Under the pieces are notes generated by a model. The model worked only from the letters and a program-made list of their open reading frames with translations. It was not told the DNA's origin and made no database searches. Source: Candidatus Sericytochromatia bacterium (GTDB lineage: Bacteria > Cyanobacteriota > Sericytochromatia > S15B-MN24 > UBA4093). Taken from it: 32,906 bases of DNA. Positions 5,907 through 32,165 of this stretch are shown piece after piece. How positions within the stretch are numbered: position 1 is the first letter of the stretch; every line of letters starts with the position of its first letter. A program made the translations under genes and the position numbers. The DNA is taken from contig JAKFCT010000079.1 in NCBI GenBank assembly GCA_036676495.1, positions 1-32,906 of the forward strand. Reading direction: 5' to 3'.

Positions 5907-7414
5907 CGATGGCAGAGAATCAGAAGTGCTGGCTGGATACCGTCCACCCGGCATATGCGGCGGCGGCTCCCCATTGGGCGTTCTGCCGGCAGAGCTACGA
6001 GGGCGGCCCCGCGTATTTCGAGACCAACCTCTTCAAGTTCCGCCTCGAGGACCCGGGGGACTTCGTCGAGCGCAAGAAGCGGGCGAATCGCTACAACTTC
6101 TCGGGACAGGTCGTCGACATCTTCAACGACCACCTCTTCAAGGTCCAGCCGACTCGCAAGGTCGACGCGGCCCGGCCGGGCGTCCAGCGTTTCTGGAAGC
6201 GAGCCACGAAGGGCAAAGGCGCCAATGGGATCGAGGTCTTCATCCGTGAGGTCTCGAAGTGGAAGAGCGCTGAAGGTCGTCTCTACGCCGTGATCGACGT
6301 GCCGTCGGACGGGGGAGTACCCCCGACCACTGAAGCCGATCGCCTGAGCCGCGGCCTTGAGCCCTACGCCTACTACGTCCACCCGGACGACATGCTCGAC
6401 ATCGCCTTTGACGAAGACGGCAAGATCCTCTGGGCGAAGGTCCGCGAGCGTTACCGCGACGATGCGGATCCCAAGGCGGCTAGCGATTCGTACGAGGAGC
6501 GATACCGCCTCTGGGAGCGTGGCAAGTGGTCGCTCTGGCGGAAAAAGAAGGACGATCAAACCGGCACCGTCGAGGCCGAGCTCATCGAGGAAGGCGAAAT
6601 TCCTTTCGACGAGGTCCCGATCGTCATCGTCGAGCACCAGGACGGCGACGACTACACCTCGCCAGGGCTGATCGATGACGTGGTCTACATCGACCGCGAC
6701 ATCTTCAACCTCGGGAGCGAACTCAACGAAACGATCAGCCAGCAGACCTTCGGGCAACTCATCATGCCGTCGGATGCGCTACCGTCGAAGCTGACGGAGG
6801 ATCAGCTCGCCAAGTACCTGGCCGTCGGCAAGCGTCGCGTCCTGGTCTACTACGCCGATGCCAAGCATCCGCCGCAGTACATCAGCCCGGACGCGTCCCA
6901 GGGCGGCCTCATCCTCTCGACCATCGACAAGCGGATCGGCTGGCTCTACGACGCCGTCAACCTCGGTTCGGAGGTCGGTCGCGAGAAGACAACCGCCGCG
7001 AGCGGCGTCTCGAAGGCCTACGACTTCGCCACGCTCGAGGGCGGACTCGTCACCTCCGCGACCGAGCTGGAATCGGCTGAGATGGAAATGGCGCGCTTCG
7101 TCGACCTCTGGACCGGCGGCACGGGCGAACTCCCCGAGGGGCTCGTCGCTTACCCGCGGACCTTCGACGTGGTCAGCCTGAATCAGGCACTCACGGAGGC
7201 GATGAGCCTGCAGGTCGTCCTCGAGGAGGCTTCGCCCACGGCCATGGCCGAGCTTCGCAAGCAGCTCGCAGCCAAGGGCCTGGACAAGCTCGACGCGAAG
7301 ACCATGCAGCAGATCGTGGCCGAGATCGACGCCTACGCGGCGACCGAGCGGCTCGGGCCTGCTGAAGACCAGGAAGACGAGGTGATCGAGGTGGAGAATG
7401 GCGGATTGGCTTGA
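5903..7414 (+). CDS. Portal protein
   Basis: ~500 aa directly after TerL with ATGA overlap (the ORF-track start at 5765 is too early). HPAY..., SGVSKAYDF clip-region motif, acidic C-terminus. Confidence 0.88.
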   Translation: MTMAENQKCWLDTVHPAYAAAAPHWAFCRQSYEGGPAYFETNLFKFRLEDPGDFVERKKRANRYNFSGQVVDIFNDHLFKVQPTRKVDAARPGVQRFWKRATKGKGANGIEVFIREVSKWKSAEGRLYAVIDVPSDGGVPPTTEADRLSRGLEPYAYYVHPDDMLDIAFDEDGKILWAKVRERYRDDADPKAASDSYEERYRLWERGKWSLWRKKKDDQTGTVEAELIEEGEIPFDEVPIVIVEHQDGDDYTSPGLIDDVVYIDRDIFNLGSELNETISQQTFGQLIMPSDALPSKLTEDQLAKYLAVGKRRVLVYYADAKHPPQYISPDASQGGLILSTIDKRIGWLYDAVNLGSEVGREKTTAASGVSKAYDFATLEGGLVTSATELESAEMEMARFVDLWTGGTGELPEGLVAYPRTFDVVSLNQALTEAMSLQVVLEEASPTAMAELRKQLAAKGLDKLDAKTMQQIVAEIDAYAATERLGPAEDQEDEVIEVENGGLA

Positions 7415-8207
7415 GCGATTCGTCCGGCGACAGGACAGGGCAAAGGATGCCGCAGCACGCGCGCTGACGAGCATCTACACGCAGGCGGCCCGGGAGCTTC
7501 TCGGGTCGCTTCTGCTTGATGGCGATGCTCCCCTCGACGTCATCCGGAACGGCCGGGTGCTCGCCCAGGTCCTGCCTCTCCTGCAGCGTCTGGACAACCG
7601 GGCGACGATGGCCCTGAGCACGCTCCTCCTAGACGCCTACGCAGGGACCCGGCGGGACATCTTCCGCGTAGCGCTCCTGCAGGCTGGCTCAGTTCCACCT
7701 CCGCCGGAGGCGGGGATCCGGATCTCGTTCGAGACCATCCCTGAAGAGCGCGTGCGCGAGGCCGCCCGGGCGAGCCTCGCGCACGTCAAGGGGATCGGCG
7801 AGGACTTGCGGACCAAGATCCGGGCCCAGATCGGCATCTCCTACGTCCGGGGGGAGAGCGTCCGTGACCTCGCCAAGCGGATTGCTGGAACGGGACTCAC
7901 CCCGGATGGCGGGCACCCGAGCTTCCACACGGCCGAGGTCCGCGCCAACGTAATCGCCCGAACCGAGACCGCGCGGATCCACTCCGTCACCACCGAGGAG
8001 GCGATCGCCCAGATCCCCGGCGGCCTGATGGAGTGGAGCGCACTCCTGGAGGGGGCCTGCAAGTTCTGCCGTGACCTCGACGGGCAGCTTGCGAAGCCGG
8101 GCGAGCTCTTCGTCGGGCGACGCTACCCCGGCATGTGGATGGTGCCTCGGCATCCCCGTTGCCGCTGCGTGATCGTCCCGCACATACCGAAAGCAGGGAG
8201 ACCATGA
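7398..8207 (+). CDS. Minor head protein, Mu gpF/SPP1 gp7 (MuF) family, short form
   Basis: RANVIARTETARIH, CKFCRDLDG and HPRCRC motifs; follows the portal. Confidence 0.92.
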   Translation: MADWLERFVRRQDRAKDAAARALTSIYTQAARELLGSLLLDGDAPLDVIRNGRVLAQVLPLLQRLDNRATMALSTLLLDAYAGTRRDIFRVALLQAGSVPPPPEAGIRISFETIPEERVREAARASLAHVKGIGEDLRTKIRAQIGISYVRGESVRDLAKRIAGTGLTPDGGHPSFHTAEVRANVIARTETARIHSVTTEEAIAQIPGGLMEWSALLEGACKFCRDLDGQLAKPGELFVGRRYPGMWMVPRHPRCRCVIVPHIPKAGRP

Positions 8208-12817: not shown

Positions 12818-12834
12818 CCCAGCTCAAAACTACG

Positions 12835-12859
12835 CCCCCGGCCACGCGCCGGGGGTTTT
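12835..12859 (+). terminator. Intrinsic terminator-like hairpin
   Basis: CCCCCGGC-CACGC-GCCGGGGG-TTTT. Confidence 0.7.
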
Positions 12860-12877
12860 GCGTGAAAGGAAGGCGTC

Positions 12878-21710: not shown

Positions 21711-24389
21711 ATGCCCGAAGTCTACTCGTCGAGCGAGACCTCGCTCGAGCTGCTCGACCCGATCACGGGGGGCGTCATCATGACGATCCCCTTCCTGCGG
21801 GACGACACCTTCTCCGAGAGCCCGACCTACGCCCCCCGCGGCTACCACCGGAGCGCGGCCGTCTCGGCGGCCCGTCTCCGCTCCAAGGGGACGATCACCA
21901 TCCGCAAGGACGCCGAGAGCCTGGCCTTCGCCCAGGAGGTCGAGCGCTGGCAGAAGGGCGTCATCTGGTACCCGATGGGCTCCGACCTCAAAGGGAAGCG
22001 CTTCCGGCATCCCCACGTTCGCAAGGTCATGACGCAGCCGGACGGAACCAAGGAATACCGCACGGGCTACGACGTCCGCCTCTCCGACCGGTCCTTGAGC
22101 CGGCCCGACGCGGGGCTCCTCTCGGAGTCGCTCACCTTTGACGTCCAGGGCGGATTCGATACCTCTGACAGCGAGCGCGGGGAGCCCGTCCGAACCCTCG
22201 ACTTCCACCGCACCGGCTCCGCCACCTACGTGGGCACGGACGGCCAGATCAAGACGGCGGGGGATGGGGTGGCGCGGTTCGGGGTGCCGGTGGCTCCGGT
22301 GCGGCGGAACCTTTTCGACTACTCTACTGATCTTTTGGCGTCCTACTGGGAGAAGCTAAGCCTTACCGTGACGGCAGGCATGCCCGATCCTTTCGGCGGG
22401 ACAGGGGCTTTCACGCTCACCGAGGCGTCAGGGGCCGGGAGTCGGTTTCTCCGTAGGACGATCACGCCTTCAGCAGCAGGAAAAATCTACACGCTGAGCT
22501 ACTGCCTTCAGGCCGGCGCGCGCAAATGGGCCTACCTCTCCATTTTCGACGAGTCAGGCAGCGGAAACTCCGCCAATGCGTACTTCAACCTAGAAATAGG
22601 AACGCTCGGCACCTACAGCGCTCCGGGCGGTACACTACCGACCATCACGAGCCTGGGAGGCGGTTGGTATCGCTGCACGGTGACCTTTACGCACGTCAGC
22701 GGGTACGTGCGGCACCAAGCCAACATCGCAGCAGCGAACGGCAGCAACTCCTACGTCGGTGATGGTGTGAGCGGCATCCGAGCCTATGGTCCGATGCTCA
22801 ACGAGGGCACAGCGGCGCTCCCCTACCAGCCCACCAACGCAACCGGCGTAGACCTCTCCCACCCCCTCAACGGGGCGGGGCTGGTGCTGGAGGGGGCGGG
22901 GACGAATCTCTGCATCAACAACGTCTTCAACAACACGATGGGATGGTCTGCGACTAGGGGTGTTGCGACCACGGGGGCGCTTACAGCCGGAAAGGCTAGC
23001 GCAATAAAAACCACAGTAACTTCGCAGTACGACACGATTTATACGCTTCTATCGGCAGCGCTAACTCCAGGTGCGACCTACACCGTAAGCTTTTTAGTAA
23101 AAACTACGATCGATATGCAGCTCTGGTTTCAGAACATTTCGCTGAACACAACGCATAAAGACATAACGCTTAAAGCGAACGTGCCTCAGGAAGTCGTTTT
23201 TTCGTTCGTTGCTGGGGCGTCAGGCACATGGTATGGCGTAAAAACTGCGGCTCCATACGCAGGTGATATTACGATCGACTGCCTCCAAATCGAGCCTGGC
23301 TCCATCCGGACGAGCCTGATCCTGACCGATGGGGCGACAGTCACCCGTCAGCCCGACCTCTGCGGCATCGTCCTGCCCCACAACCTGCTCAAGTGGAGCG
23401 AGGATTTCAGCAACCCGGCGTGGGTCAAGAGCCTAGTCACGATCGCCTCAAGCAACGTCATGTGGCCGAATGGCGTGAGCAATGCGACCCAGCTTACCCT
23501 CAGCTCGCTCAAGCAGTCCCTGGGTAATCTTGCAGGAAAGACGGTCACCTGGGCATTCTGGGCTCGCATCCCCAGCGGGACGGCCAACACCCTGCGGGTC
23601 ACCCTGCGGGATGGCGCGACCCTGAAGAAACAGGAGGTTTGCAATCTCACGACCACGCCGCAACGGTTCACGGTAACTTATACGTTCGGCGCGACGGAAA
23701 CCGATGCCATAGCGGAGATCACGTCGACCACGACGGCCCAGACCTATGAAATCTGGGGGGCTCAGCCAGTTATCGGCTCTCACCCCGGCATCTACGTCCC
23801 GACCACCGATACCCCGATCCCAGCTCCGGCATCCCCGGCGCTGGACCCGGCGCTATCGCAGAATGGGCGGACGCGGTTCCGCCTCAAAACCCCGTCGGAG
23901 TCGAATCCGAATTTGGAATACGTCCAACTATTTGGGGGAGAGGGCAGAAGTGTCAATGGGGCGCTACTGCGCCTCTATCGGTCTAACGGGACTGGCAGCG
24001 GCGATAACACGGTCTACTTCGACCGGCTATCGAATCACGCGACGACGATATCCGGGGCCGTAGGCAGAGGTCTTCTCAAGGTTAGCCCTGCAGCACCTCT
24101 GTTCAGCTCCGCGGTCAGGGATGTTGTCCTCGAGTGGACGAACGAGATCAACGAGGCCACGGGCGTCCGTGAGATGTGGCAACGAATATTCGTGGACGGC
24201 GTCCTCATCGCCCAGCAGGACGTGGCTGCCCTCTACGGGGCAACCGCCTGGGCACCCATTGACCCGAGCCGCCTGATCTCGGATGGGGCCGTCAATGCCG
24301 TCCTGTCCATGCAGCCCAACGGCGGCGGAGTGATCGTCGAGTTCCCGCCCCGCCGCGCCGGCTACCGCCAGGTCGAGCGAGCGGCCTAA
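21711..24389 (+). CDS. Fibre/spike protein with three carbohydrate-binding-like beta-sandwich modules
   Basis: RBS GGAGG before ATG 21711. FHRTGSATYVGTDGQI, GLVLEGAGTNL and VTRQPD motifs of phage spike fibres. Three NL-x(n)-W modules. Confidence 0.8.
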   Translation: MPEVYSSSETSLELLDPITGGVIMTIPFLRDDTFSESPTYAPRGYHRSAAVSAARLRSKGTITIRKDAESLAFAQEVERWQKGVIWYPMGSDLKGKRFRHPHVRKVMTQPDGTKEYRTGYDVRLSDRSLSRPDAGLLSESLTFDVQGGFDTSDSERGEPVRTLDFHRTGSATYVGTDGQIKTAGDGVARFGVPVAPVRRNLFDYSTDLLASYWEKLSLTVTAGMPDPFGGTGAFTLTEASGAGSRFLRRTITPSAAGKIYTLSYCLQAGARKWAYLSIFDESGSGNSANAYFNLEIGTLGTYSAPGGTLPTITSLGGGWYRCTVTFTHVSGYVRHQANIAAANGSNSYVGDGVSGIRAYGPMLNEGTAALPYQPTNATGVDLSHPLNGAGLVLEGAGTNLCINNVFNNTMGWSATRGVATTGALTAGKASAIKTTVTSQYDTIYTLLSAALTPGATYTVSFLVKTTIDMQLWFQNISLNTTHKDITLKANVPQEVVFSFVAGASGTWYGVKTAAPYAGDITIDCLQIEPGSIRTSLILTDGATVTRQPDLCGIVLPHNLLKWSEDFSNPAWVKSLVTIASSNVMWPNGVSNATQLTLSSLKQSLGNLAGKTVTWAFWARIPSGTANTLRVTLRDGATLKKQEVCNLTTTPQRFTVTYTFGATETDAIAEITSTTTAQTYEIWGAQPVIGSHPGIYVPTTDTPIPAPASPALDPALSQNGRTRFRLKTPSESNPNLEYVQLFGGEGRSVNGALLRLYRSNGTGSGDNTVYFDRLSNHATTISGAVGRGLLKVSPAAPLFSSAVRDVVLEWTNEINEATGVREMWQRIFVDGVLIAQQDVAALYGATAWAPIDPSRLISDGAVNAVLSMQPNGGGVIVEFPPRRAGYRQVERAA

Positions 24390-24445
24390 CCCAGACACCC
24401 ACCGCCCCCGCCTCACCCGCGGGGGCTCGCCTTTTGGAGGACACC

Positions 24446-24721
24446 ATGCCCCAACCCATCACCCCCATCGTCACCCACTCCCAGATCCACGGCGCCCACA
24501 TCGACGTGGACGGCGAGCGGATCGTCATCGACCACTCCGAGGGCATCCAGCCCGATGGCGAGCCGTACCAGCCCCACCGGCATCTCACGGACACGATCGA
24601 GGGCGAGGCCTTCGCGGCGCTCTGCAATACCGTCGTCACCATCCAGGGCCCGAACCAGACCTACCAGACCACGGTCTACGCCCTGCTCAAGGATCTCCTG
24701 TACGGGGCGCTGCCCGTCTAG
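24446..24721 (+). CDS. Small phage protein, possible fibre-associated chaperone
   Basis: RBS GGAGG; 91 aa; follows the fibre gene; strong codon bias. Confidence 0.7.
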   Translation: MPQPITPIVTHSQIHGAHIDVDGERIVIDHSEGIQPDGEPYQPHRHLTDTIEGEAFAALCNTVVTIQGPNQTYQTTVYALLKDLLYGALPV

Positions 24722-24722
24722 C

Positions 24723-24839
24723 AGAAAGCCGCCCCGAGCCTTGCAGCAGGAGGCGGCTGTGCTGCCGGAGGGACCGTCATGTCCCCTCAGGCGCCCCGAA
24801 GAGCTACGGCCGACGGATTTACCGTGTCGCAGCAGCACC
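24723..24839 (-). ncRNA. Putative antisense small RNA (four-way junction plus terminator)
   Basis: TACAAT -10 at 24850-24845. 9-bp closing helix, three arms including cUUCGg. G-U pairs work only on the minus strand. Terminal hairpin AGCCGCC/GGCGGCT-TTCT. Confidence 0.6.
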
Positions 24840-24898
24840 ATCAGATTGTACCCGCCCCCGGCTGCACGCCGGGGGCTTCCCTTTGAAAGGACGGGCCC

Positions 24899-25405
24899 AT
24901 GGCCACGACCGAAGACATCATTTCCGCAGCTCCCCATGCCGTGGCCCGTCTCCTCGAGGCCATGCCATTCAAGCTCGCCACCTCTGGAGGGATTGCCGTC
25001 CTCGGATGGCTGACGACGCCCGGCGCCTACCAGGCCGCCATCCTCATGCTCTTGGCCGACTGGGGGACCGGCATGGTCAAGGGCTACACCATTGAGGGCC
25101 GCCTACGCTCCAACGCCTTGGTACGAGGCGCCGTGAAAAGTCTCGTCTACGCGGGGCTTCTGGGTTGCGCTTGGCTGATGACTCACGGTGGCCCCATACC
25201 TGACCTGATGGGCCAGGCGATCGCCATTTACGTGCTCACGACCGAAGCGATCAGCAACCTGGAGAACCTCGACGCGATCGCCCAGCGTCACGATGTCCAA
25301 CTCCCGGCCCTGAACGGCGCACTTCGCATCTTGCGCGTGAAGGCCGACGAGCTCGCCCCCGATGTGCAAAACACGAAGGAGGAGACCCATGCCCCGCACC
25401 CGTAG
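24899..25405 (+). CDS. Holin (phage holin 4 / toxin-secretion-lysis type)
   Basis: Hydrophobic segments with ADWGTGMVKG, LRS..LVRGAVKS and EAISNLENL motifs; precedes the endolysin. Confidence 0.88.
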   Translation: MATTEDIISAAPHAVARLLEAMPFKLATSGGIAVLGWLTTPGAYQAAILMLLADWGTGMVKGYTIEGRLRSNALVRGAVKSLVYAGLLGCAWLMTHGGPIPDLMGQAIAIYVLTTEAISNLENLDAIAQRHDVQLPALNGALRILRVKADELAPDVQNTKEETHAPHP

Positions 25406-26144
25406 CGAACAGGAGGCCGTCGCCCGCGCCATCACCATGGCCTTTGAGGGCGCTGGCTTCGTGAACCTGGCCGGCAACTTCGACGGCCAGGGGTGGAGCC
25501 TCGGCGCGCTCCAGTGGAACTTTGGCCAGGGCACCTTGCAGCCCTTGATCCTGGCCATGGAGAAGGAGGGGCCCAAGACCTTCCGCGAGCTGCTCACCGT
25601 CACCCACCAAGGGAAGGCCTACGACCTCGCCCCCTTGCTCCTCGATGCGTGCCGCATGCCCAAGACTCAGGCGATCGCTTGGGCGGATGCGCGGTGTCAC
25701 GGTCCCGGCAAGCGCCAGCTCGTCGAACCTTGGCGCACGGGCTTGGCTGCGCTTCTCGGGCACCCAGGGATGCAGCAGGCCCAGATCCGCGCGATGCAGT
25801 CCTACATGGATGACGCCCAGGCCGATTGCGCCTTCTACGGGCTCAAAACCCTGCGCGACCTCGCCCTCTTCCACGACATCGCCGTTCAGAACGGGCGAGG
25901 CAAGGTGGGCAAGCTGAGTGCAGCGGACACTCGCCAGGCCTTCGAGAGTCGCGGGGGCATGAGCCTTGCACCGGATAAGCGGCGCCTGGCGATCGCCCTG
26001 GCCGTCGCTGATACGTGCAATCCGCGCTGGCGCGCCGACGTTCACTCTCGCAAGGCGACGATCGTCCACGGTGCCGGCATGGTCCACGGGCGCCAGTACA
26101 ATCTCGCGCAGATGTACGGCCCGCTTGATGAGGTGCTGGCATGA
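25389..26144 (+). CDS. Endolysin, lysozyme-like fold (putative)
   Basis: RBS AAGGAGGAG before ATG 25389. ITMAFEG...GNFDGQGWSLGALQWNFGQGTL and FHDIAVQNG motifs. Follows the holin. Confidence 0.8.
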   Translation: MPRTRSEQEAVARAITMAFEGAGFVNLAGNFDGQGWSLGALQWNFGQGTLQPLILAMEKEGPKTFRELLTVTHQGKAYDLAPLLLDACRMPKTQAIAWADARCHGPGKRQLVEPWRTGLAALLGHPGMQQAQIRAMQSYMDDAQADCAFYGLKTLRDLALFHDIAVQNGRGKVGKLSAADTRQAFESRGGMSLAPDKRRLAIALAVADTCNPRWRADVHSRKATIVHGAGMVHGRQYNLAQMYGPLDEVLA

Positions 26145-26800
26145 CGAAACGCCTTTACCTGGCCCTCGCTGCGGCGGGGGCCGTCCTCTTGGCCTTCCTG
26201 GGCCTCACCAGTTGCCCCGCGCCGGATCCGGTCACGCCGCCGGCGGCGATCGCCTCCCCCATGCCCGCGTCGACCGCGGCCGCCAGCAACTCGACGGCCG
26301 CCACGGCGACGGGGACGATCAGGGCGACGATCCGGCGGCCGGTCGCTGGGCCCCATGCGCCTCAAATCAAGTCGGAAAACCTGCACAACGGGACTGAGGT
26401 CCAGTCGGGAAGCGGCGGGCCCCATGCGCAGAACTACGAGGAGATCGTCATCGAGGTCACGCAGACCGCGACGGCGGTCGCCAGCTCGGAGGCGTCGGCA
26501 GGTGCAGGCGTCCTATCGCCGGCGCAGGAGCGCCCGGAAATCGCAGGAGGGGAGCATGCCCGCCTCGGGGCGTTCGTCGGGACGGTGCCCGGGGCGATCG
26601 CCATTTCCTACCAGCTCGCCGATGTCGAGATCCCCCCCTGGGTGATCGGCACTCCGCTCGAGCTCGGCCTCGAGGTCGAGGGGAATACCCAGCAGCTCGG
26701 CGCTGGAGTCTCGGTCGGGTCGAAGGCCTTCGCCACCGGCGGCGGCTATCTCGGATGGGATGGGCCTGGCTGGTACGTGGGCCTCGGCATGAGATTCTGA
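26141..26800 (+). CDS. Spanin-position membrane/lipoprotein with C-terminal beta-strands
   Basis: ATGA overlap with the endolysin stop. Hydrophobic N-terminus with lipobox LTSC, Ala/Thr/Pro linker, ends in WYVGLGMRF. Confidence 0.7.
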   Translation: MTKRLYLALAAAGAVLLAFLGLTSCPAPDPVTPPAAIASPMPASTAAASNSTAATATGTIRATIRRPVAGPHAPQIKSENLHNGTEVQSGSGGPHAQNYEEIVIEVTQTATAVASSEASAGAGVLSPAQERPEIAGGEHARLGAFVGTVPGAIAISYQLADVEIPPWVIGTPLELGLEVEGNTQQLGAGVSVGSKAFATGGGYLGWDGPGWYVGLGMRF

Positions 26801-26805
26801 CCATT

Positions 26806-26832
26806 CCCCCGGCTTCGGCCGGGGGCTTTTCT
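26806..26832 (+). terminator. Terminator ending the late operon
   Basis: CCCCCGGC-TTCG-GCCGGGGG-CTTTTCT. Confidence 0.85.
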
Positions 26833-26879
26833 GCTTTCTCCCAAGACTCTGGCGCCTGTTTGCCGGAAGGTAGTTCGTA

Positions 26880-26915
26880 CCCCTACAGACTGTGTCGGAT
26901 GGCCGATGCTGAGCA
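26880..26915. other. Prophage-host junction (att site) within comEC
   Basis: ComEC reads LSIVMLSIG then HPTQSVGV instead of the expected QGD. The switch maps to about 26899-26901. Confidence 0.8.
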
Positions 26916-28530
26916 TGACGATCGATAGGTCGCGGGGACGGTCCAGCCGATCCCAGGCCGCGTAAGCCAGAACGGGCAGCATCAGCGCGAGGCCGCCCAG
27001 TCTCAGGTACTTCCGGCCGATGAGCCCCATCCCCCCGGCCAGGGAGACGTAGGCCAGGGCGAGCCAAGCCGCGGGCGGAAGCCTGAGGTACCAGGAGGAG
27101 CCGGGCAGTGGCAACGTCAGCTCGACGATTCCCACGAAGGCTCGCAGGAGCACGTAGGCTCCGCTGAGGAGGTGATGTCCCAGCAAGTCGGAAAGCGCCC
27201 CTCCCAGAACGGCAACGAACCCGATGATCGTCATGGCCTCCACCAGGAAGCACGTGACGGCGTTCAGTGGCAGGCTATAGGGCGAGAACTGCCCGAAGTG
27301 GAAGATCTGCAGCGGCAAGACCCAGAGCCCTGCTGCCAAAGCCATGGCAACGGCTTGAGCGAGTGTCTCGGGCAGCCTCTTGAAGAGGGGAAGGAGGATG
27401 GGCGTGGTATGCAGCAGCGAGAAGGTGGCGATCGCGCTGAACTGAAACCCCACGTCGAAGAGCAACGAGGGCCGGGCGAGGAGCATTCCCAGCACGACGG
27501 CTTCGAGGGTCAGGTAGCGCAGCCAGGGGCGCGCGACCGCCCACCCGACGATCAGCGCGCAGCCCATCCAGGTGGCGCGGACGACGGAGGGAGGCAGCCC
27601 GGTCATGAGCGCATAGCCCCAGAGGCCCGCGCAGCCGAGCGCGACGCCTAGCCAGCGGGGAATGCCGAACGCCGTGATCAGCCCCTTGAGCATCCCCCAG
27701 AGGAAGAGGATCTGGGCACCGCTCACGGCGAGCACGTGTGCCAGCCCGAGCGCCCGGAAGGCCCCGGCGGTCTCGGGGTCGATGGGAGAGGCGCCGTCCC
27801 CGAAGAGTAGGCTGCCGAGCAAGGCGGCCTGCGCCTGGGGGAGGTGGCGCGACAAGAGGGCCAGTGCCTCGTTCTTGAAGGCGATCGCCCCTCCCACGAG
27901 GCTGGGAGGCGGATCCTCGGCGAGCGGCACGATCGCGCGGGCGTTCATGACGGCGAAGATGCCGCTGCGCGCCAGGTACTCCCGGTAGTCGAACTCCCCC
28001 GGGTTCTGGGCGCTGGGCGGAGCTTTCAGGGAGCCGCGGAGGCGCACGCGTTGCCCGTAGCGTAACGATCCGCCGCTTGCGACACGGTTCGCCGTCTCGC
28101 GCCTCTCCGTTTCGGGGCTCCCCGCCTCGCGGGACTCCGCCCGGACCAGGATCCTCCCGGAAATCCGGGAGGGGACGGGGCGCTGGAGGCTCTCGACCTC
28201 GACTTCGAAGCGGAGGCCGCGCTCCGTGCGTCGCGGGTCGCTCGCCACCGTGCCCACGATCTCGGCATGCCGCAGGGGGGCCTCGTGTACGGGGTCGTTG
28301 GGCCCCGGGAGGGGCATGCGCCAGGCGGTCCAGATCATCGCGAGGGGGAGGAAGCCGAGGGCGCACGCCCCCCTGAGCAGCCACGGTCGAATCCGCCGTC
28401 GGCCCAGTGCCAGGAGCGCGAGGCAGAGGATCCCGAGGGCCGCTGCGCCGGGCTCTGCGGGGCCGAGCCTCGTGCTCAGCCCCACGCCGAGCATGTGGCC
28501 GGCGAGGAGGGCGGCCAGGAGGCCGGTCAT
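26900..28530 (-). pseudogene. comEC: ComEC/Rec2 DNA-uptake channel, 5' part (~543 codons), interrupted by the prophage; frame reads through into phage DNA to a stop at 26746
   Basis: NPGEFDYREYL, GLAHVLAVSGAQI, PSVVRATWM, GFQFSAIAT and NAV motifs of the Competence domain. MBL domain absent. Confidence 0.92.
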
Positions 28531-31608: not shown

Positions 31609-31992
31609 ATGAAGAAGTTCGTTGTAGCGCTCAGTGCCCTCATGCTTTCCCTCTCGGCCGGTGCGGCCCTCGCCTGCGGCGACGACGGCTGCAGCGCCGA
31701 GCAGTGCGCCATCACCGAGAAGGGCACCAAGGCCCATGGCGACCACGCCCCGGCCAAGGCCGTGACCGTCAAGCCCGGCTACACCCTCGCCACCCTCTCC
31801 GTCGACGGCATGGTCTGCGTCAACTGCGTCAACAAGGTCACGTCGACCCTCAAGGGCATGAAGGGCGTGGATGCGGTCAGCGTCGACCTCGAAGCCGGCA
31901 AGGCCTCCGTCTCTTACGACAAGAAGGCCGTCGAGCCCGCCAAGCTCGTCGAGATCGTCTCGAAGCTCGGCTACAAGGTCAAGCAGATCTAA
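31609..31992 (+). CDS. Exported heavy-metal-associated (HMA) domain protein, MerP/CopZ-like
   Basis: Signal peptide; LSVDGMVCVNC motif; extra Cys/His in the N-terminal linker. Confidence 0.88.
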   Translation: MKKFVVALSALMLSLSAGAALACGDDGCSAEQCAITEKGTKAHGDHAPAKAVTVKPGYTLATLSVDGMVCVNCVNKVTSTLKGMKGVDAVSVDLEAGKASVSYDKKAVEPAKLVEIVSKLGYKVKQI

Positions 31993-32008
31993 CGACCTGC
32001 CAAAACCT

Positions 32009-32046
32009 GAAGCGCCGCTCCCCTCGGGGAGCGGCGCTTCGTTTTT
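32009..32046 (+). terminator. Intrinsic terminator
   Basis: GAAGCGCCGCTCCCC/GGGGAGCGGCGCTTC perfect inverted repeat, then GTTTTT. Confidence 0.88.
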
Positions 32047-32165
32047 GGGGCTAGCGCCTGCGGCGGTTGCGAGACGCCCGTGGCTGGAGACCAGGAGAGC
32101 GAGCGTTAGCTGTGACCCCGATAGAGAGGGCGTGACAAGCATCGCTCGCTGACCTGAAGCAACGA

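What the first reader, a model, noticed from the sequence alone, without database searches (positions are those of the whole stretch)
24723..24850. Self-contained antisense four-way-junction RNA just upstream of the lysis cassette
Seen on the minus strand: TACAAT, then 6 nt later GTGCTGCTG pairing with CGGCAGCAC. This encloses three arms: CGAC..GG-TAAAT-CC.GTCG, GGC..GCTC-TTCG-GGGC.GCC and GAGGGGAC-ATGACG-GTCCCTC. A terminator-like AGCCGCC/GGCGGCT-TTCT follows at once. Two positions are G-U on minus but C-A mismatches on plus, which supports the strand. No good -35 is visible. Inference: a ~115-nt sRNA, possibly made in lysogeny, that could damp lysis-gene read-through or act in trans as a cloverleaf-like decoy. 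Family not recognised.
Basis: partly seen in the sequence, partly recalled or inferred. Interest (0 to 1): 0.72.

Follow-up and report, generated by a model that had tools for sequence, protein, structure and literature searches.

The report
New phage small RNA, tRNA-shaped
The flagged stretch is a real small RNA gene on the minus strand, and it belongs to a widespread family of folded phage RNAs, absent from the RNA family catalogue, that normally sits beside a nuclease-carrying phage head gene.

Summary
On the minus strand, TACAAT (24850-24845) is followed 6 nt later by an 80-nt four-way junction (24838-24759), then a hairpin plus T-run (24758-24723). Folding energy alone is unremarkable (z -1.15). 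Comparison settles it.

- **Family:** covariance models found more than 100 homologues in very diverse bacteria and phages. All four helices and a 5-bp loop-loop pseudoknot covary (94% and 91% of cells paired, against 39-49% in slid controls).
- **Membership:** a model built without the window scores it 71.4 bits (E 6e-15).
- **Strand:** G-U pairs, UUCG/GNRA tetraloops and a conserved -10 box (58 of 78 sequences; controls 2 and 8) all point to the minus strand.
- **Known families:** Rfam 15 holds no such family, and ARAGORN calls no tRNA.
- **Usual home:** in 75 of 80 viral loci chosen only for a MuF C-terminal RelE-like RNase domain (PBECR3), the RNA lies antisense, mostly abutting that gene's stop codon.
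- **This copy:** it is an orphan, inserted between a 91-aa late gene and the holin. A related phage lacks the whole spacer.

Function is untested. My best guess is a folded RNA ligand, probably an inhibitor, of that RNase, not a regulator of lysis.

The parts
24845..24850 (-). -10 promoter box TACAAT, 6 nt upstream of the first paired base
   Evidence: Sequence. TAnnnT lies 4-10 nt upstream of P1 in 58 of 78 distinct family sequences, against 2 of 78 and 8 of 78 in two controls. No -35 box is recognisable, and the consensus scan calls no promoter.
24759..24838 (-). 80-nt RNA core: four-way junction (P1-P4) plus L2-L4 pseudoknot
   Evidence: R3, a model built from 26 other sequences, scores it 71.4 bits, E 5.7e-15, with every modelled pair canonical. 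It is the only copy in its genome.
24830..24838 (-). P1, 5' strand (pairs with 24759-24767)
   Evidence: 9 bp. All 9 P1 pairs show changes on both sides across the family.
24759..24767 (-). P1, 3' strand
   Evidence: As above.
24806..24825 (-). P2 (ACGG 24825-24822 with CCGT 24809-24806) enclosing the 12-nt loop L2
   Evidence: Invariant in the first set. It covaries in the MuF-selected set: AU 28 / GC 19, and GC 36 / AU 13.
24812..24816 (-). Pseudoknot strand in L2 (CCGTC)
   Evidence: Pairs with 24774-24778. The pseudoknot was in no model, yet 95-96% of its cells are paired and 3-4 of its 5 pairs change on both sides.
24793..24804 (-). P3: short variable hairpin capped by a UUCG tetraloop
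   Evidence: Length varies across the family. Caps read by eye include UUCG, GAAA, GCAA and GUAA on this strand. Three of the four visible substitutions in run X2 fall in this arm and one in the adjoining junction.
24768..24788 (-). P4 hairpin (GAGGGG with TCCCTC, 9-nt loop L4). L4 bases 24774-24778 form the other pseudoknot strand.
   Evidence: 92-98% paired, with 4 of 6 pairs changed on both sides.
24723..24758 (-). Terminator-like hairpin (24758-24727) and T-run. The predicted 3' end lies next to the stop codon of the upstream + strand gene.
   Evidence: MFE hairpin. The scan tool missed it because its loop exceeds 8 nt. Across the family the 12 nt after P1 are T-rich (0.38 against 0.17 in the RNA body).
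24854..24884 (+). Plus-strand terminator-like hairpin and T-run just before the holin ribosome binding site. It lies upstream of the RNA's promoter.
   Evidence: The same hairpin / T-run / RBS design stands before the 91-aa gene at 24404-24426, with similar stretches at 12833-12873 and in contig C63.
24724..24889 (.). Inserted cassette, bounded by a 5-nt direct repeat GAAAG (24724-24728 and 24885-24889)
   Evidence: A contig of run X2 joins 24715 to 24894 with 21 other letters between. Relatives of the flanking genes have only a 15-30-nt spacer. The repeat is also the phage's RBS motif, so it may be microhomology or chance.
24446..24721 (+). 91-aa late gene of unknown function, upstream neighbour on the + strand
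   Evidence: Its paralogue in contig C63 (88% identity) and a homologue in G001 are followed directly by the next gene. No likeness to the MuF C-terminal domain.
24899..25405 (+). Holin (Phage_holin_4_1), downstream neighbour on the + strand
7398..8207 (+). This prophage's own MuF-like gene: 269 aa, with no C-terminal RNase domain and no RNA beside it (context)
   Evidence: Pfam PF04233 at residues 140-259. R3 finds only one match in the window.

Best explanation
Shown: 24850-24723 on the minus strand is a compact small RNA gene of about 116 nt.
- It has a -10 box, a start at the first base of helix P1, an 80-nt core and a terminator.
- The core is a four-way junction locked by a 5-bp kissing contact between the first and third arm loops. 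This is the topology of a tRNA cloverleaf.
- It belongs to a widespread, uncatalogued family of phage and mobile-element RNAs.
- The family's usual place is antisense to a MuF head-protein gene that ends in a RelE/BrnT-like RNase domain (Pfam PBECR3), mostly abutting or overlapping that gene's stop codon.
- The window's copy is an orphan. It arrived as a cassette of about 160 nt between a 91-aa late gene and the holin. This prophage's own MuF has no RNase domain.

Inferred: the RNA acts through its fold, as a specific ligand of that RNase domain. Most likely it is a non-cleavable, tRNA-shaped inhibitor, that is, an RNA immunity factor or antitoxin. An orphan copy would then protect the lysogen from the RNase that a superinfecting Mu-like phage brings in its head. 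It would not regulate the lysis genes.

My odds: real RNA gene of this family, 0.9; functional partner of the PBECR3 domain, 0.6; inhibitor or immunity factor specifically, 0.35.
For: **Family and structure**
- R1, built from the window alone, found three tandem copies in G018, a genome of the same order.
- A motif scan of the genome collection gave 26 loci in very diverse bacteria. Of these, 17 match R2 at E <= 1e-4.
- All 10 of 10 viral motif loci match R2.
- On A8 (30 distinct rows), 93.9% of cells pair against 41-49% in slid controls. 19 of 28 pairs change on both sides, and 0 of 500 shuffles reach the observed value.
- On A11 (49 distinct rows, fetched by protein homology only), 90.6% pair against 39-47%. 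23 of 28 pairs change on both sides.
- The pseudoknot was in no model and still pairs in 95-96% of cells.
- R3, built without the window or G018, scores the window 71.4 bits.

**Strand**
- Position-specific G-U pairs fall mainly in P3 and P4. P3 pairs in 78% of cells on this strand and 66% on the other; P4 in 98% and 87%.
- UUCG and GNRA caps sit on this strand.
- The -10 box is conserved, and the tail after P1 is T-rich.

**Partner**
- Of 80 viral loci chosen only by homology to the MuF C-terminal domain, 68 hold the RNA at default filters and 7 more with filters off.
- Every one is on the strand opposite MuF.
- In 66 of the 69 default-filter matches, the 3' end lies between 49 nt inside and 7 nt beyond the MuF stop codon.
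- The domain is PBECR3 by Pfam.
- Its AlphaFold model (pLDDT 89) is closest to the RNase toxins BrnT and RelE, weakly: best E 0.035, probability 0.98.
- E. coli Mu has a different C-terminal domain (a weak MuF_C hit). Iyer et al. 2017 (PMC5512222, passages read) call it an inactive PBECR. Mu has overlapping F and G genes and no RNA.
- In G018 the RNA array abuts the stop codon of a ParE/RelE-family toxin gene.

**Orphan status**
-.
Against: - No transcript was seen. Expression, ends and abundance are untested.
- No experiment or calculation here shows that the RNA binds the RNase domain. Tight linkage could equally mean a cofactor, a cargo or a regulator.
- About half of the genome-collection hits lie away from any MuF gene: 9 of 17 strong loci, some between ordinary chromosomal genes. 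The RNA can therefore persist without the partner.
- The G018 ParE-like toxin shows no significant sequence likeness to the MuF domain.
- The fold matches to RelE-type toxins are weak by E-value.
- Alignments A8 and A11 were fitted to the models' helices, which favours P1-P4, though not the pseudoknot.
- Many sequences are related, so counts of cells overstate independent events.
- tRNA likeness is one of topology only. ARAGORN calls none of 42 loci at the RNA.
Confidence: 0.4

Rival explanations
1. Cis-antisense or transcription-interference element. Transcription from the minus-strand promoter collides with, or pairs with, the late + strand transcript. This would damp read-through into the downstream genes, here the holin and in Mu-like phages gene G, in the lysogen.
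For: The RNA is antisense to its neighbours in the window, in G018 and in 75 of 75 MuF loci. It often overlaps the last codons of MuF. In Cupriavidus-type loci its -10 box sits a few nt from the G start codon.
Against: The RNA ends at P1 or at its own terminator, so it covers only the spacer and at most a few codons. An antisense role does not explain a covarying four-way junction and pseudoknot with conserved loops. It also does not explain copies between chromosomal genes in other orientations, such as L064, L108 and L111. Antisense orientation inside operons is expected for any cassette that carries a terminator.
Confidence: 0.12
2. Decoy or ligand for a host factor other than the MuF RNase. 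Candidates are a tRNA-recognising defence nuclease, RNase P, or a translation or repair factor. The phage would express it to blunt host defence or to tune the host.
For: tRNA-like topology: helix lengths, a 4-nt junction in the place of the variable loop, and arm-loop contact in the place of the D/T elbow. It has its own sigma-70-type -10 box. Orphan copies occur in prophages and islands without MuF-PBECR3.
Against: It does not explain the near-constant placement at the stop codon of one particular protein domain. No host gene was found to co-occur, and none was searched for.
Confidence: 0.15
3. Positive cofactor or cargo of the head protein. The RNA would be bound by MuF's C-terminal domain and packaged or used in head assembly or DNA delivery, as phi29 pRNA serves the portal. 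The L2-L4 complementarity could then act between molecules and build rings.
For: Linkage to a virion protein gene in the head module, in the order portal-MuF-RNA-G-protease. Loop-loop complementarity covaries. Iyer et al. 2017 predict RNA binding for the inactive PBECR of Mu (passages read).
Against: Phage Mu itself lacks the RNA. Orphan copies far from head genes, including this window's, would have no use. Rfam's pRNA model gave no match. A promoter independent of the late operon is odd for an assembly factor.
Confidence: 0.12
4. Selfish mobile RNA element or new self-cleaving ribozyme. The cassette would spread on its own account, and the fold would serve its mobility or processing.
For: Precise presence or absence of a cassette of about 160 nt, with a 5-nt direct repeat at its edges. 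Tandem copies in G018, L071 and L076. Two copies in one Sphingomonadales genome share about 45 nt of upstream sequence. Distribution is patchy: 2 of 151 and 5 of 151 genomes.
Against: One copy per genome in most cases. No transposase, integrase or reverse transcriptase is consistently nearby. No match to any Rfam ribozyme. The position beside MuF has been stable through long divergence.
Confidence: 0.08
5. Chance folding of a GC-rich spacer, or a plus-strand leader or attenuator of the holin.
For: Fold z-scores are ordinary. A terminator-like hairpin stands on the + strand before the holin RBS. A 35-codon ORF with a GGAGG motif starts at 24779.
Against: Family-wide covariation, strand-specific G-U pairs and tetraloops, and a promoter on the minus strand. 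In run X2 the core recurs with different flanks, so the 35-codon frame is not kept. Only 2 of the 4 visible substitutions fall at third codon positions.
Confidence: 0.02

Closest known systems
tRNA and tRNA-like structures (for example viral TLS, mascRNA, the tRNA-like domain of bacterial Y RNA)
   Same: A four-way junction of tRNA size. The first arm has a 4-bp stem and a large loop. One nucleotide separates the first and second arms. A 4-nt junction sits where the variable loop would be. The third arm runs straight into the closing helix. The first and third arm loops touch each other.
   Different: The closing helix is 9 bp. There is no 7-nt anticodon loop; the middle arm varies in length and carries UUCG or GNRA caps. 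There is no T-loop or D-loop consensus and no CCA or discriminator. The loop contact is a 5-bp Watson-Crick helix. ARAGORN calls none.
Type III toxin-antitoxin RNAs (ToxI, CptI, TenpI; recalled)
   Same: If my reading is right: a small folded RNA encoded beside an endoribonuclease that neutralises it by binding. Tandem copies occur in some loci.
   Different: Type III antitoxins are short tandem repeats upstream of the toxin on the same strand, and the toxin cuts them out. Here there is usually one unit of 85-110 nt with its own promoter, on the opposite strand, at the 3' end of the gene. The RNase is a RelE-like domain fused to a virion protein. Binding is not shown.
phi29 pRNA (recalled; an Rfam family, no match here)
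   Same: A phage RNA linked to the head and portal module, with covarying loop-loop complementarity.
   Different: pRNA is a three-way junction of 120-170 nt. Its loops pair between molecules, and it is essential for packaging. No sequence or model likeness was found. Phage Mu lacks this RNA.
Classical phage antisense RNAs (lambda OOP, P22 sar, P1 c4; recalled)
   Same: Short, constitutive, made from its own promoter, and antisense to a phage operon.
   Different: Those RNAs act by pairing with a coding region or a ribosome binding site. This RNA covers only an intergenic spacer and has a conserved tertiary fold.
Mu-gpT-DE motif (Rfam; recalled as another RNA motif of Mu-like head modules)
   Same: A conserved RNA structure in the head gene cluster of Mu-like prophages.
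   Different: It has a different place (downstream of gpT), is read on the sense strand and is a different structure. No Rfam model matched the window or six family loci.

Membership tests
MuF-RNase-associated four-way-junction RNA (family defined here; unnamed) | Match to a covariance model built without the candidate | tested here: met
   R3 (26 sequences, none from the window or G018): 71.4 bits, E 5.7e-15, full length, no non-canonical pair. The R3 seed sequences were themselves found with a motif and a model derived from the window and G018.
MuF-RNase-associated four-way-junction RNA (family defined here; unnamed) | Helices P1 (8-9 bp), P2 (4 bp around a 12-nt loop), P3 (variable capped hairpin) and P4 (6 bp, 9-nt loop), in this order, with no linker between P4 and P1 | tested here: met
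   Window coordinates are given under parts.
MuF-RNase-associated four-way-junction RNA (family defined here; unnamed) | 5-bp pseudoknot between L2 and L4 | tested here: met
   CCGTC (24816-24812) with GACGG (24778-24774), 5 of 5 Watson-Crick. The commonest family version is CTCCC with GGGAG.
MuF-RNase-associated four-way-junction RNA (family defined here; unnamed) | Conserved unpaired blocks: AC before P2, TAAAT/TGAAT at the start of L2, and the CGGCCGTA block | tested here: met
   All are present in the window copy.
MuF-RNase-associated four-way-junction RNA (family defined here; unnamed) | -10 box (TAnnnT) 4-10 nt upstream of P1 on the same strand | tested here: met
   TACAAT, 6 nt upstream. 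Family: 58 of 78.
MuF-RNase-associated four-way-junction RNA (family defined here; unnamed) | Position antisense at the stop codon of a MuF gene with a PBECR3 domain | tested here: not met
   The window copy abuts the stop codon of an unrelated 91-aa gene. The prophage's MuF (7398-8207) has no such domain and no RNA beside it. This feature holds for 75 of 80 MuF-selected loci. It holds for only about half of the loci found by RNA motif, so it is typical and not defining.
tRNA | Cloverleaf with a 7-nt anticodon loop, D and T loop consensus, and a 7-bp acceptor stem | tested here: not met
   ARAGORN finds no gene in the window and none at the RNA in 42 family loci. The middle arm carries a tetraloop.
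Any Rfam 15 family (4227 models, including riboswitches, ribozymes, c4, pRNA and Mu-gpT-DE) | Score at or near the family's gathering threshold | tested here: not met
   The window gave no match at gathering thresholds. At E <= 10 on 24600-25000 the matches were all far below gathering: one weak chance match inside the core (14.8 bits against 80), and two weak ones on the hairpin beside the promoter. Six family loci at E <= 1 gave nothing at the RNA.
Type III toxin-antitoxin system | RNA repeats upstream of, and on the same strand as, an endoribonuclease gene that processes and is inhibited by them | tested here: not met
   The gene arrangement is the opposite: convergent and at the 3' end. 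Processing and inhibition cannot be tested with these tools.
Cis-antisense regulatory RNA | Extended complementarity to a coding region or ribosome binding site of the overlapped mRNA | tested here: not met
   The predicted RNA spans 24838-24723. The neighbouring stop codon is at 24719-24721, and the holin RBS is at 24885-24892, outside the RNA.

The most novel reading that the evidence does not exclude
The RNA is an RNA immunity factor. It would be a tRNA-shaped, non-cleavable mimic that binds and silences the RelE-like RNase which Mu-like phages carry in their heads on MuF and inject with their DNA. Copies beside MuF would protect the producing cell. Orphan copies would act like the orphan immunity genes of polymorphic toxin systems and shield the lysogen from the injected RNase of competing phages. 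Examples of orphans are this window's copy, the triple array in G018, and copies between chromosomal genes. That would be a new class of RNA-protein toxin/immunity pair working at the level of the virion.
Probability: 0.3. Interest if true: 0.92.

Novelty: categorically new. Interest (0 to 1): 0.86.

Why it matters
A small RNA with four covarying helices and a covarying pseudoknot, present from Betaproteobacteria to Fibrobacteria and in cultured phages, has apparently gone unannotated. Mannheimia phage vB_MhM_3927AP2 and Haemophilus phage SuMu both carry it in a gap with no annotation.

Its near-constant pairing with one protein domain gives a concrete, testable hypothesis for two open points:
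- what the predicted injected RNases of MuF proteins do, and how the phage or lysogen is protected from them;
- whether RNAs can serve as immunity factors against protein effectors delivered by virions.

Even if the function proves different, the family is a compact, well-defined target for structure determination. It is also a new marker of Mu-like head modules.

Limit: 'not described' rests on Rfam 15 and on the seven completed full-text searches. Catalogues of candidate phage RNAs held only in supplements, or in journals not held here, could contain it.

Tried and rejected
- **Folding energy as evidence:** ordinary.
- **Relatives of the whole spacer by BLAST:** none in 47 genomes of the class, 401 of the phylum, the phage collection or the plasmid collection.
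- **Two 16-base words of the core in viral contigs:** chance matches only.
- **Holin-based search for related loci:** one distant relative, with no spacer.
- **Loci found with the 91-aa gene and the endolysin:** nothing useful.
- **Repeat or MITE in the window's own genome:** single copy.
- **RNA evidence:** no RNA holder listed. The contigs laid were DNA only.
- **Plus-strand riboswitch or leader with a terminator platform:** considered. Dropped because of the strand-specific G-U pairs and tetraloops and the minus-strand promoter.
- **35-codon ORF at 24779:** dropped.
- **Weak R1 matches L055-L060:** judged chance by eye.
- **G018 ParE-like toxin against the MuF domain, and 91-aa protein against the MuF domain:** no significant likeness.
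- **Sequence search of the PDB with the MuF domain:** nothing meaningful.
- **Literature:** seven searches completed. I read passages of Jamet et al. 2017 (PMC5576092) and Iyer et al. 2017 (PMC5512222). No RNA beside MuF is described. One preprint on BECR RNases appeared in a search listing but could not be opened.
- **Earlier notes of this scan:** nothing.
Full report
**1. Setting**

The window is a whole 32.9-kb contig of a 4.1-Mb soil metagenome-assembled genome. Most of it is a prophage read on the + strand.
- It carries a MuF-like gene (7398-8207), a P22-type coat gene and long tail genes.
- An 896-aa tail protein ends at 24389.
- A 91-aa gene of unknown function runs to 24721.
- A holin occupies 24899-25405, followed by two more ORFs.
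- A host ComEC gene lies on the other strand.

The finding lies in the 177-nt spacer between the 91-aa gene and the holin.

**2. The observation**

- TACAAT is at 24850-24845.
- A 9-bp closing helix joins 24838-24830 with 24767-24759.
- A TTCG-capped hairpin is present.
- A hairpin on GAGGGG/TCCCTC is present.
- A hairpin with a T-run ends beside the stop codon of the 91-aa gene.

The spacers drawn in arms 1 and 2 were miscounted.

Thermodynamics gives no support.
- z is -1.15 on the minus strand and -1.93 on the plus strand.
- The drawn junction is 5.5-6.3 kcal/mol worse than the MFE of the isolated core.
- The minus-over-plus advantage sits only at the 12th percentile of 80-nt windows of this contig.

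Rfam and ARAGORN find nothing relevant.

**3. First comparisons: the spacer is an insertion**

- The 91-aa gene has a paralogue in a second prophage of the same genome (88% identity) and a homologue in a genome of the same genus. In both, the next gene follows after about 25 nt.
- The only holin relative with DNA on hand has a 15-nt spacer.
- In the public run X2, one contig carries relatives of both flanking genes and joins 24715 to 24894 with 21 other letters between.
- Another X2 contig holds only 24760-24836 (9 differences) in different flanks. Its boundaries are those of the closing helix.
- By eye, a TACGAT hexamer lies at nearly the same distance upstream on the minus strand.

The core is therefore a discrete module that moves.

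**4. Finding the family**

- BLAST found nothing in 47 genomes of the class or 401 of the phylum.
- R1, a model built from the window's core alone, found tandem copies in G018, a genome of the same order.
- The blocks shared with those copies gave a degenerate motif. That motif hit 26 loci in the genome collection and 10 in viral contigs.
- The genome hits include Cupriavidus, Pseudogulbenkiania, Aquitalea, Sphingomonas, Hankyongella, Desulfovibrio and Fibrobacteria.
- R2 confirmed 17 of the 26 genome loci at E <= 1e-4, and all 10 viral loci.
- R3 later added L065 and L072 clearly, and L080 and L085 weakly. L069, L070, L079, L082 and L083 did not match.
- Rfam at E <= 1 finds nothing at the RNA in six of these loci.

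**5. Structure**

The consensus has these parts, in order:
- P1, 8-9 bp.
- A junction of 2-4 nt ending in AC.
- P2 (ACGG with CCGT) around a 12-nt loop.
- One A.
- P3, whose base carries a conserved A-A mismatch in most members, followed by a hairpin of variable length.
- A junction of 4-5 nt.
- P4, 6 bp with a 9-nt loop, running straight into P1.

Five bases of L2 pair with five of L4.

| Measure | A8 | A11 |
|---|---|---|
| Distinct rows | 30 | 49 |
| How the sequences were fetched | RNA motif and model | homology to a neighbouring protein only |
| Cells forming a standard pair | 93.9% | 90.6% |
| Same measure, partner slid by 1-3 columns | 41-49% | 39-47% |
| Pairs changed on both sides | 19 of 28 | 23 of 28 |
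| Shuffles reaching the observed pairing | 0 of 500 | 0 of 500 |

In A11, P2 also covaries. The measure 'further pair types' was not exceptional there (140 of 500 shuffles reached it).

The pseudoknot was in no model, and it pairs in 95-96% of cells. The window has CCGTC with GACGG where most members have CTCCC with GGGAG. All five window pairs are Watson-Crick.

Caveats:
- P1-P4 counts lean towards the models that made the alignments.
- Relatedness among sequences inflates cell counts.

**6. Strand and transcription**

- Helix pairing falls when the other strand is read. P3 goes from 78% to 66% and P4 from 98% to 87%, because of G-U pairs at fixed positions.
- P3 caps include UUCG, GAAA, GCAA and GUAA on this strand (read by eye).
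- TAnnnT lies 4-10 nt upstream of P1 in 58 of 78 distinct sequences. The two controls give 2 of 78 and 8 of 78.
- The 12 nt after P1 are T-rich, 0.38 against 0.17 in the RNA body.
- Several members, like the window, have a separate terminator hairpin (read by eye).

The unit is thus a complete gene for an RNA of about 85-120 nt. No transcript was seen, and no RNA run was listed.

**7. Membership of the window copy**

R3, built from 26 sequences excluding the window and G018, scores 24838-24759 at 71.4 bits, E 5.7e-15, with every modelled pair canonical. It is the only copy in the genome.

**8. Where the family lives**

Among loci found by the RNA motif, many lie between a MuF gene and a gene G homologue (Phage_tail_S) of Mu-like prophages, on the opposite strand.

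The MuF proteins concerned share a C-terminal domain.
- Its AlphaFold model (pLDDT 89.3) is closest to BrnT and RelE-type toxins, with weak scores.

The reverse test was to take 80 viral loci chosen only by homology to this domain.

| Result among the 80 loci | Count |
|---|---|
| RNA found at default filters | 68 |
| Further loci with the RNA once filters were off | 7 |
| Locus stops short of the expected place (L172, L177) | 2 |
| Only 8-13-bit matches at the expected place (L128, L129, L136) | 3 |

- All 75 copies are antisense to MuF.
- In 66 of the 69 default-filter matches, the RNA's 3' end lies between 49 nt inside and 7 nt beyond the MuF stop codon.

Cultured examples:
- Mannheimia phage vB_MhM_3927AP2 has the RNA in an unannotated 150-nt gap.
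- Haemophilus phage SuMu has a divergent copy.
- E. coli Mu has no gap between F and G and no RNA. Iyer et al. 2017 call its MuF C-terminus an inactive PBECR.

**9. Copies away from MuF**

- 9 of the 17 strong genome-collection loci are not beside MuF.
- Some lie next to IS1595 transposases or between ordinary chromosomal genes.
- In G018, three tandem copies abut the stop codon of a ParE/RelE-family toxin gene and precede a serine recombinase gene.
- The family is sparse:

| Sample searched | Genomes with the RNA (search centre included) |
|---|---|
| Window's order | 2 of 27 |
| Order of the Cupriavidus genome behind L062 | 2 of 151 |
| Order of the Sphingomonas genome behind L074 | 5 of 151 |

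- The window's prophage has a short MuF without the RNase domain. Its RNA is therefore an orphan copy.

**10. How it most likely works**

Shown:
- The gene anatomy.
- The fold.
- The strand.
- The linkage to the MuF RNase domain.
- The insertion in this phage.

Inferred:
- The RNA ends within the spacer, so it cannot act by extended antisense pairing.
- The conserved tertiary fold and the partner domain point to a protein-RNA complex.
- The topology is that of a tRNA, with the anticodon arm replaced by an inert capped hairpin.
- Relatives of the partner's fold include RelE and, from my own recall, the tRNA-cutting colicins D and E5.
- I therefore favour a non-cleavable mimic that inhibits the RNase (odds 0.35).
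- Orphan copies would then serve as immunity against incoming phages.

Rivals are a cofactor or cargo of MuF, a decoy for a host factor, transcriptional interference, and a selfish or ribozyme element. The section Rival explanations weighs each.

The position before the lysis cassette looks incidental.

**11. Novelty**

- No Rfam 15 model matches.
- No tRNA is called.
- The seven completed full-text searches and two papers read in part describe no RNA beside MuF.
- Supplements of large phage-RNA surveys were not seen and could list it as an unnamed candidate.

Noticed in passing
window 24404-24426 and 24854-24876 (+); similar stretches at window 12833-12873 and G000 contig C63 11974-12014: A recurring 'punctuation' before late genes: a GC-rich hairpin, then a T-run that overlaps the GGAGGA/GAAAGGA ribosome binding site. 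It looks like an intrinsic terminator placed directly before a start codon. That suggests antitermination or mRNA processing in this phage group.
   Followed up: partly
G000 contig C63 (locus L010 1505-1792): A second prophage in the same genome carries an 88% identical copy of the 91-aa gene. It is followed by different genes, with no holin of this type and no RNA.
   Followed up: partly
L054 1405-1724 (G018 contig C53): Three tandem copies of the RNA; two of them have their own -10 box. They lie between a ParE/RelE-family toxin gene, which has an 82-aa upstream partner, and a serine recombinase gene. The copy nearest the toxin gene has a degenerate closing helix.
   Followed up: partly
L108 and L111 (two contigs of genome G564): Two copies of the RNA between ordinary chromosomal genes of one Sphingomonadales genome. 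They share about 45 nt of upstream sequence including the -10 box, as if promoter and RNA move together.
   Followed up: no
L195 2532-2732 (Haemophilus phage SuMu): SuMu has an extra annotated 66-aa hypothetical gene between the RNA and gene G. The other Mu-like loci I looked at do not.
   Followed up: no
window 31990-32050: This was the most stable local fold of the contig. It is an ordinary strong terminator hairpin with a T-run, right after a stop codon.
   Followed up: yes
window 26141-26800 (+) and 26746-28530 (-): The last prophage-side ORF (219 aa, no family) overlaps the 3' end of the host ComEC gene by about 55 nt. The prophage-host junction should lie here.
   Followed up: no
L086 2273-3766: A 497-aa protein with a weak RelA/SpoT-like match (E 6e-4) lies convergent to an orphan RNA copy, about 200 nt away.
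   Followed up: no
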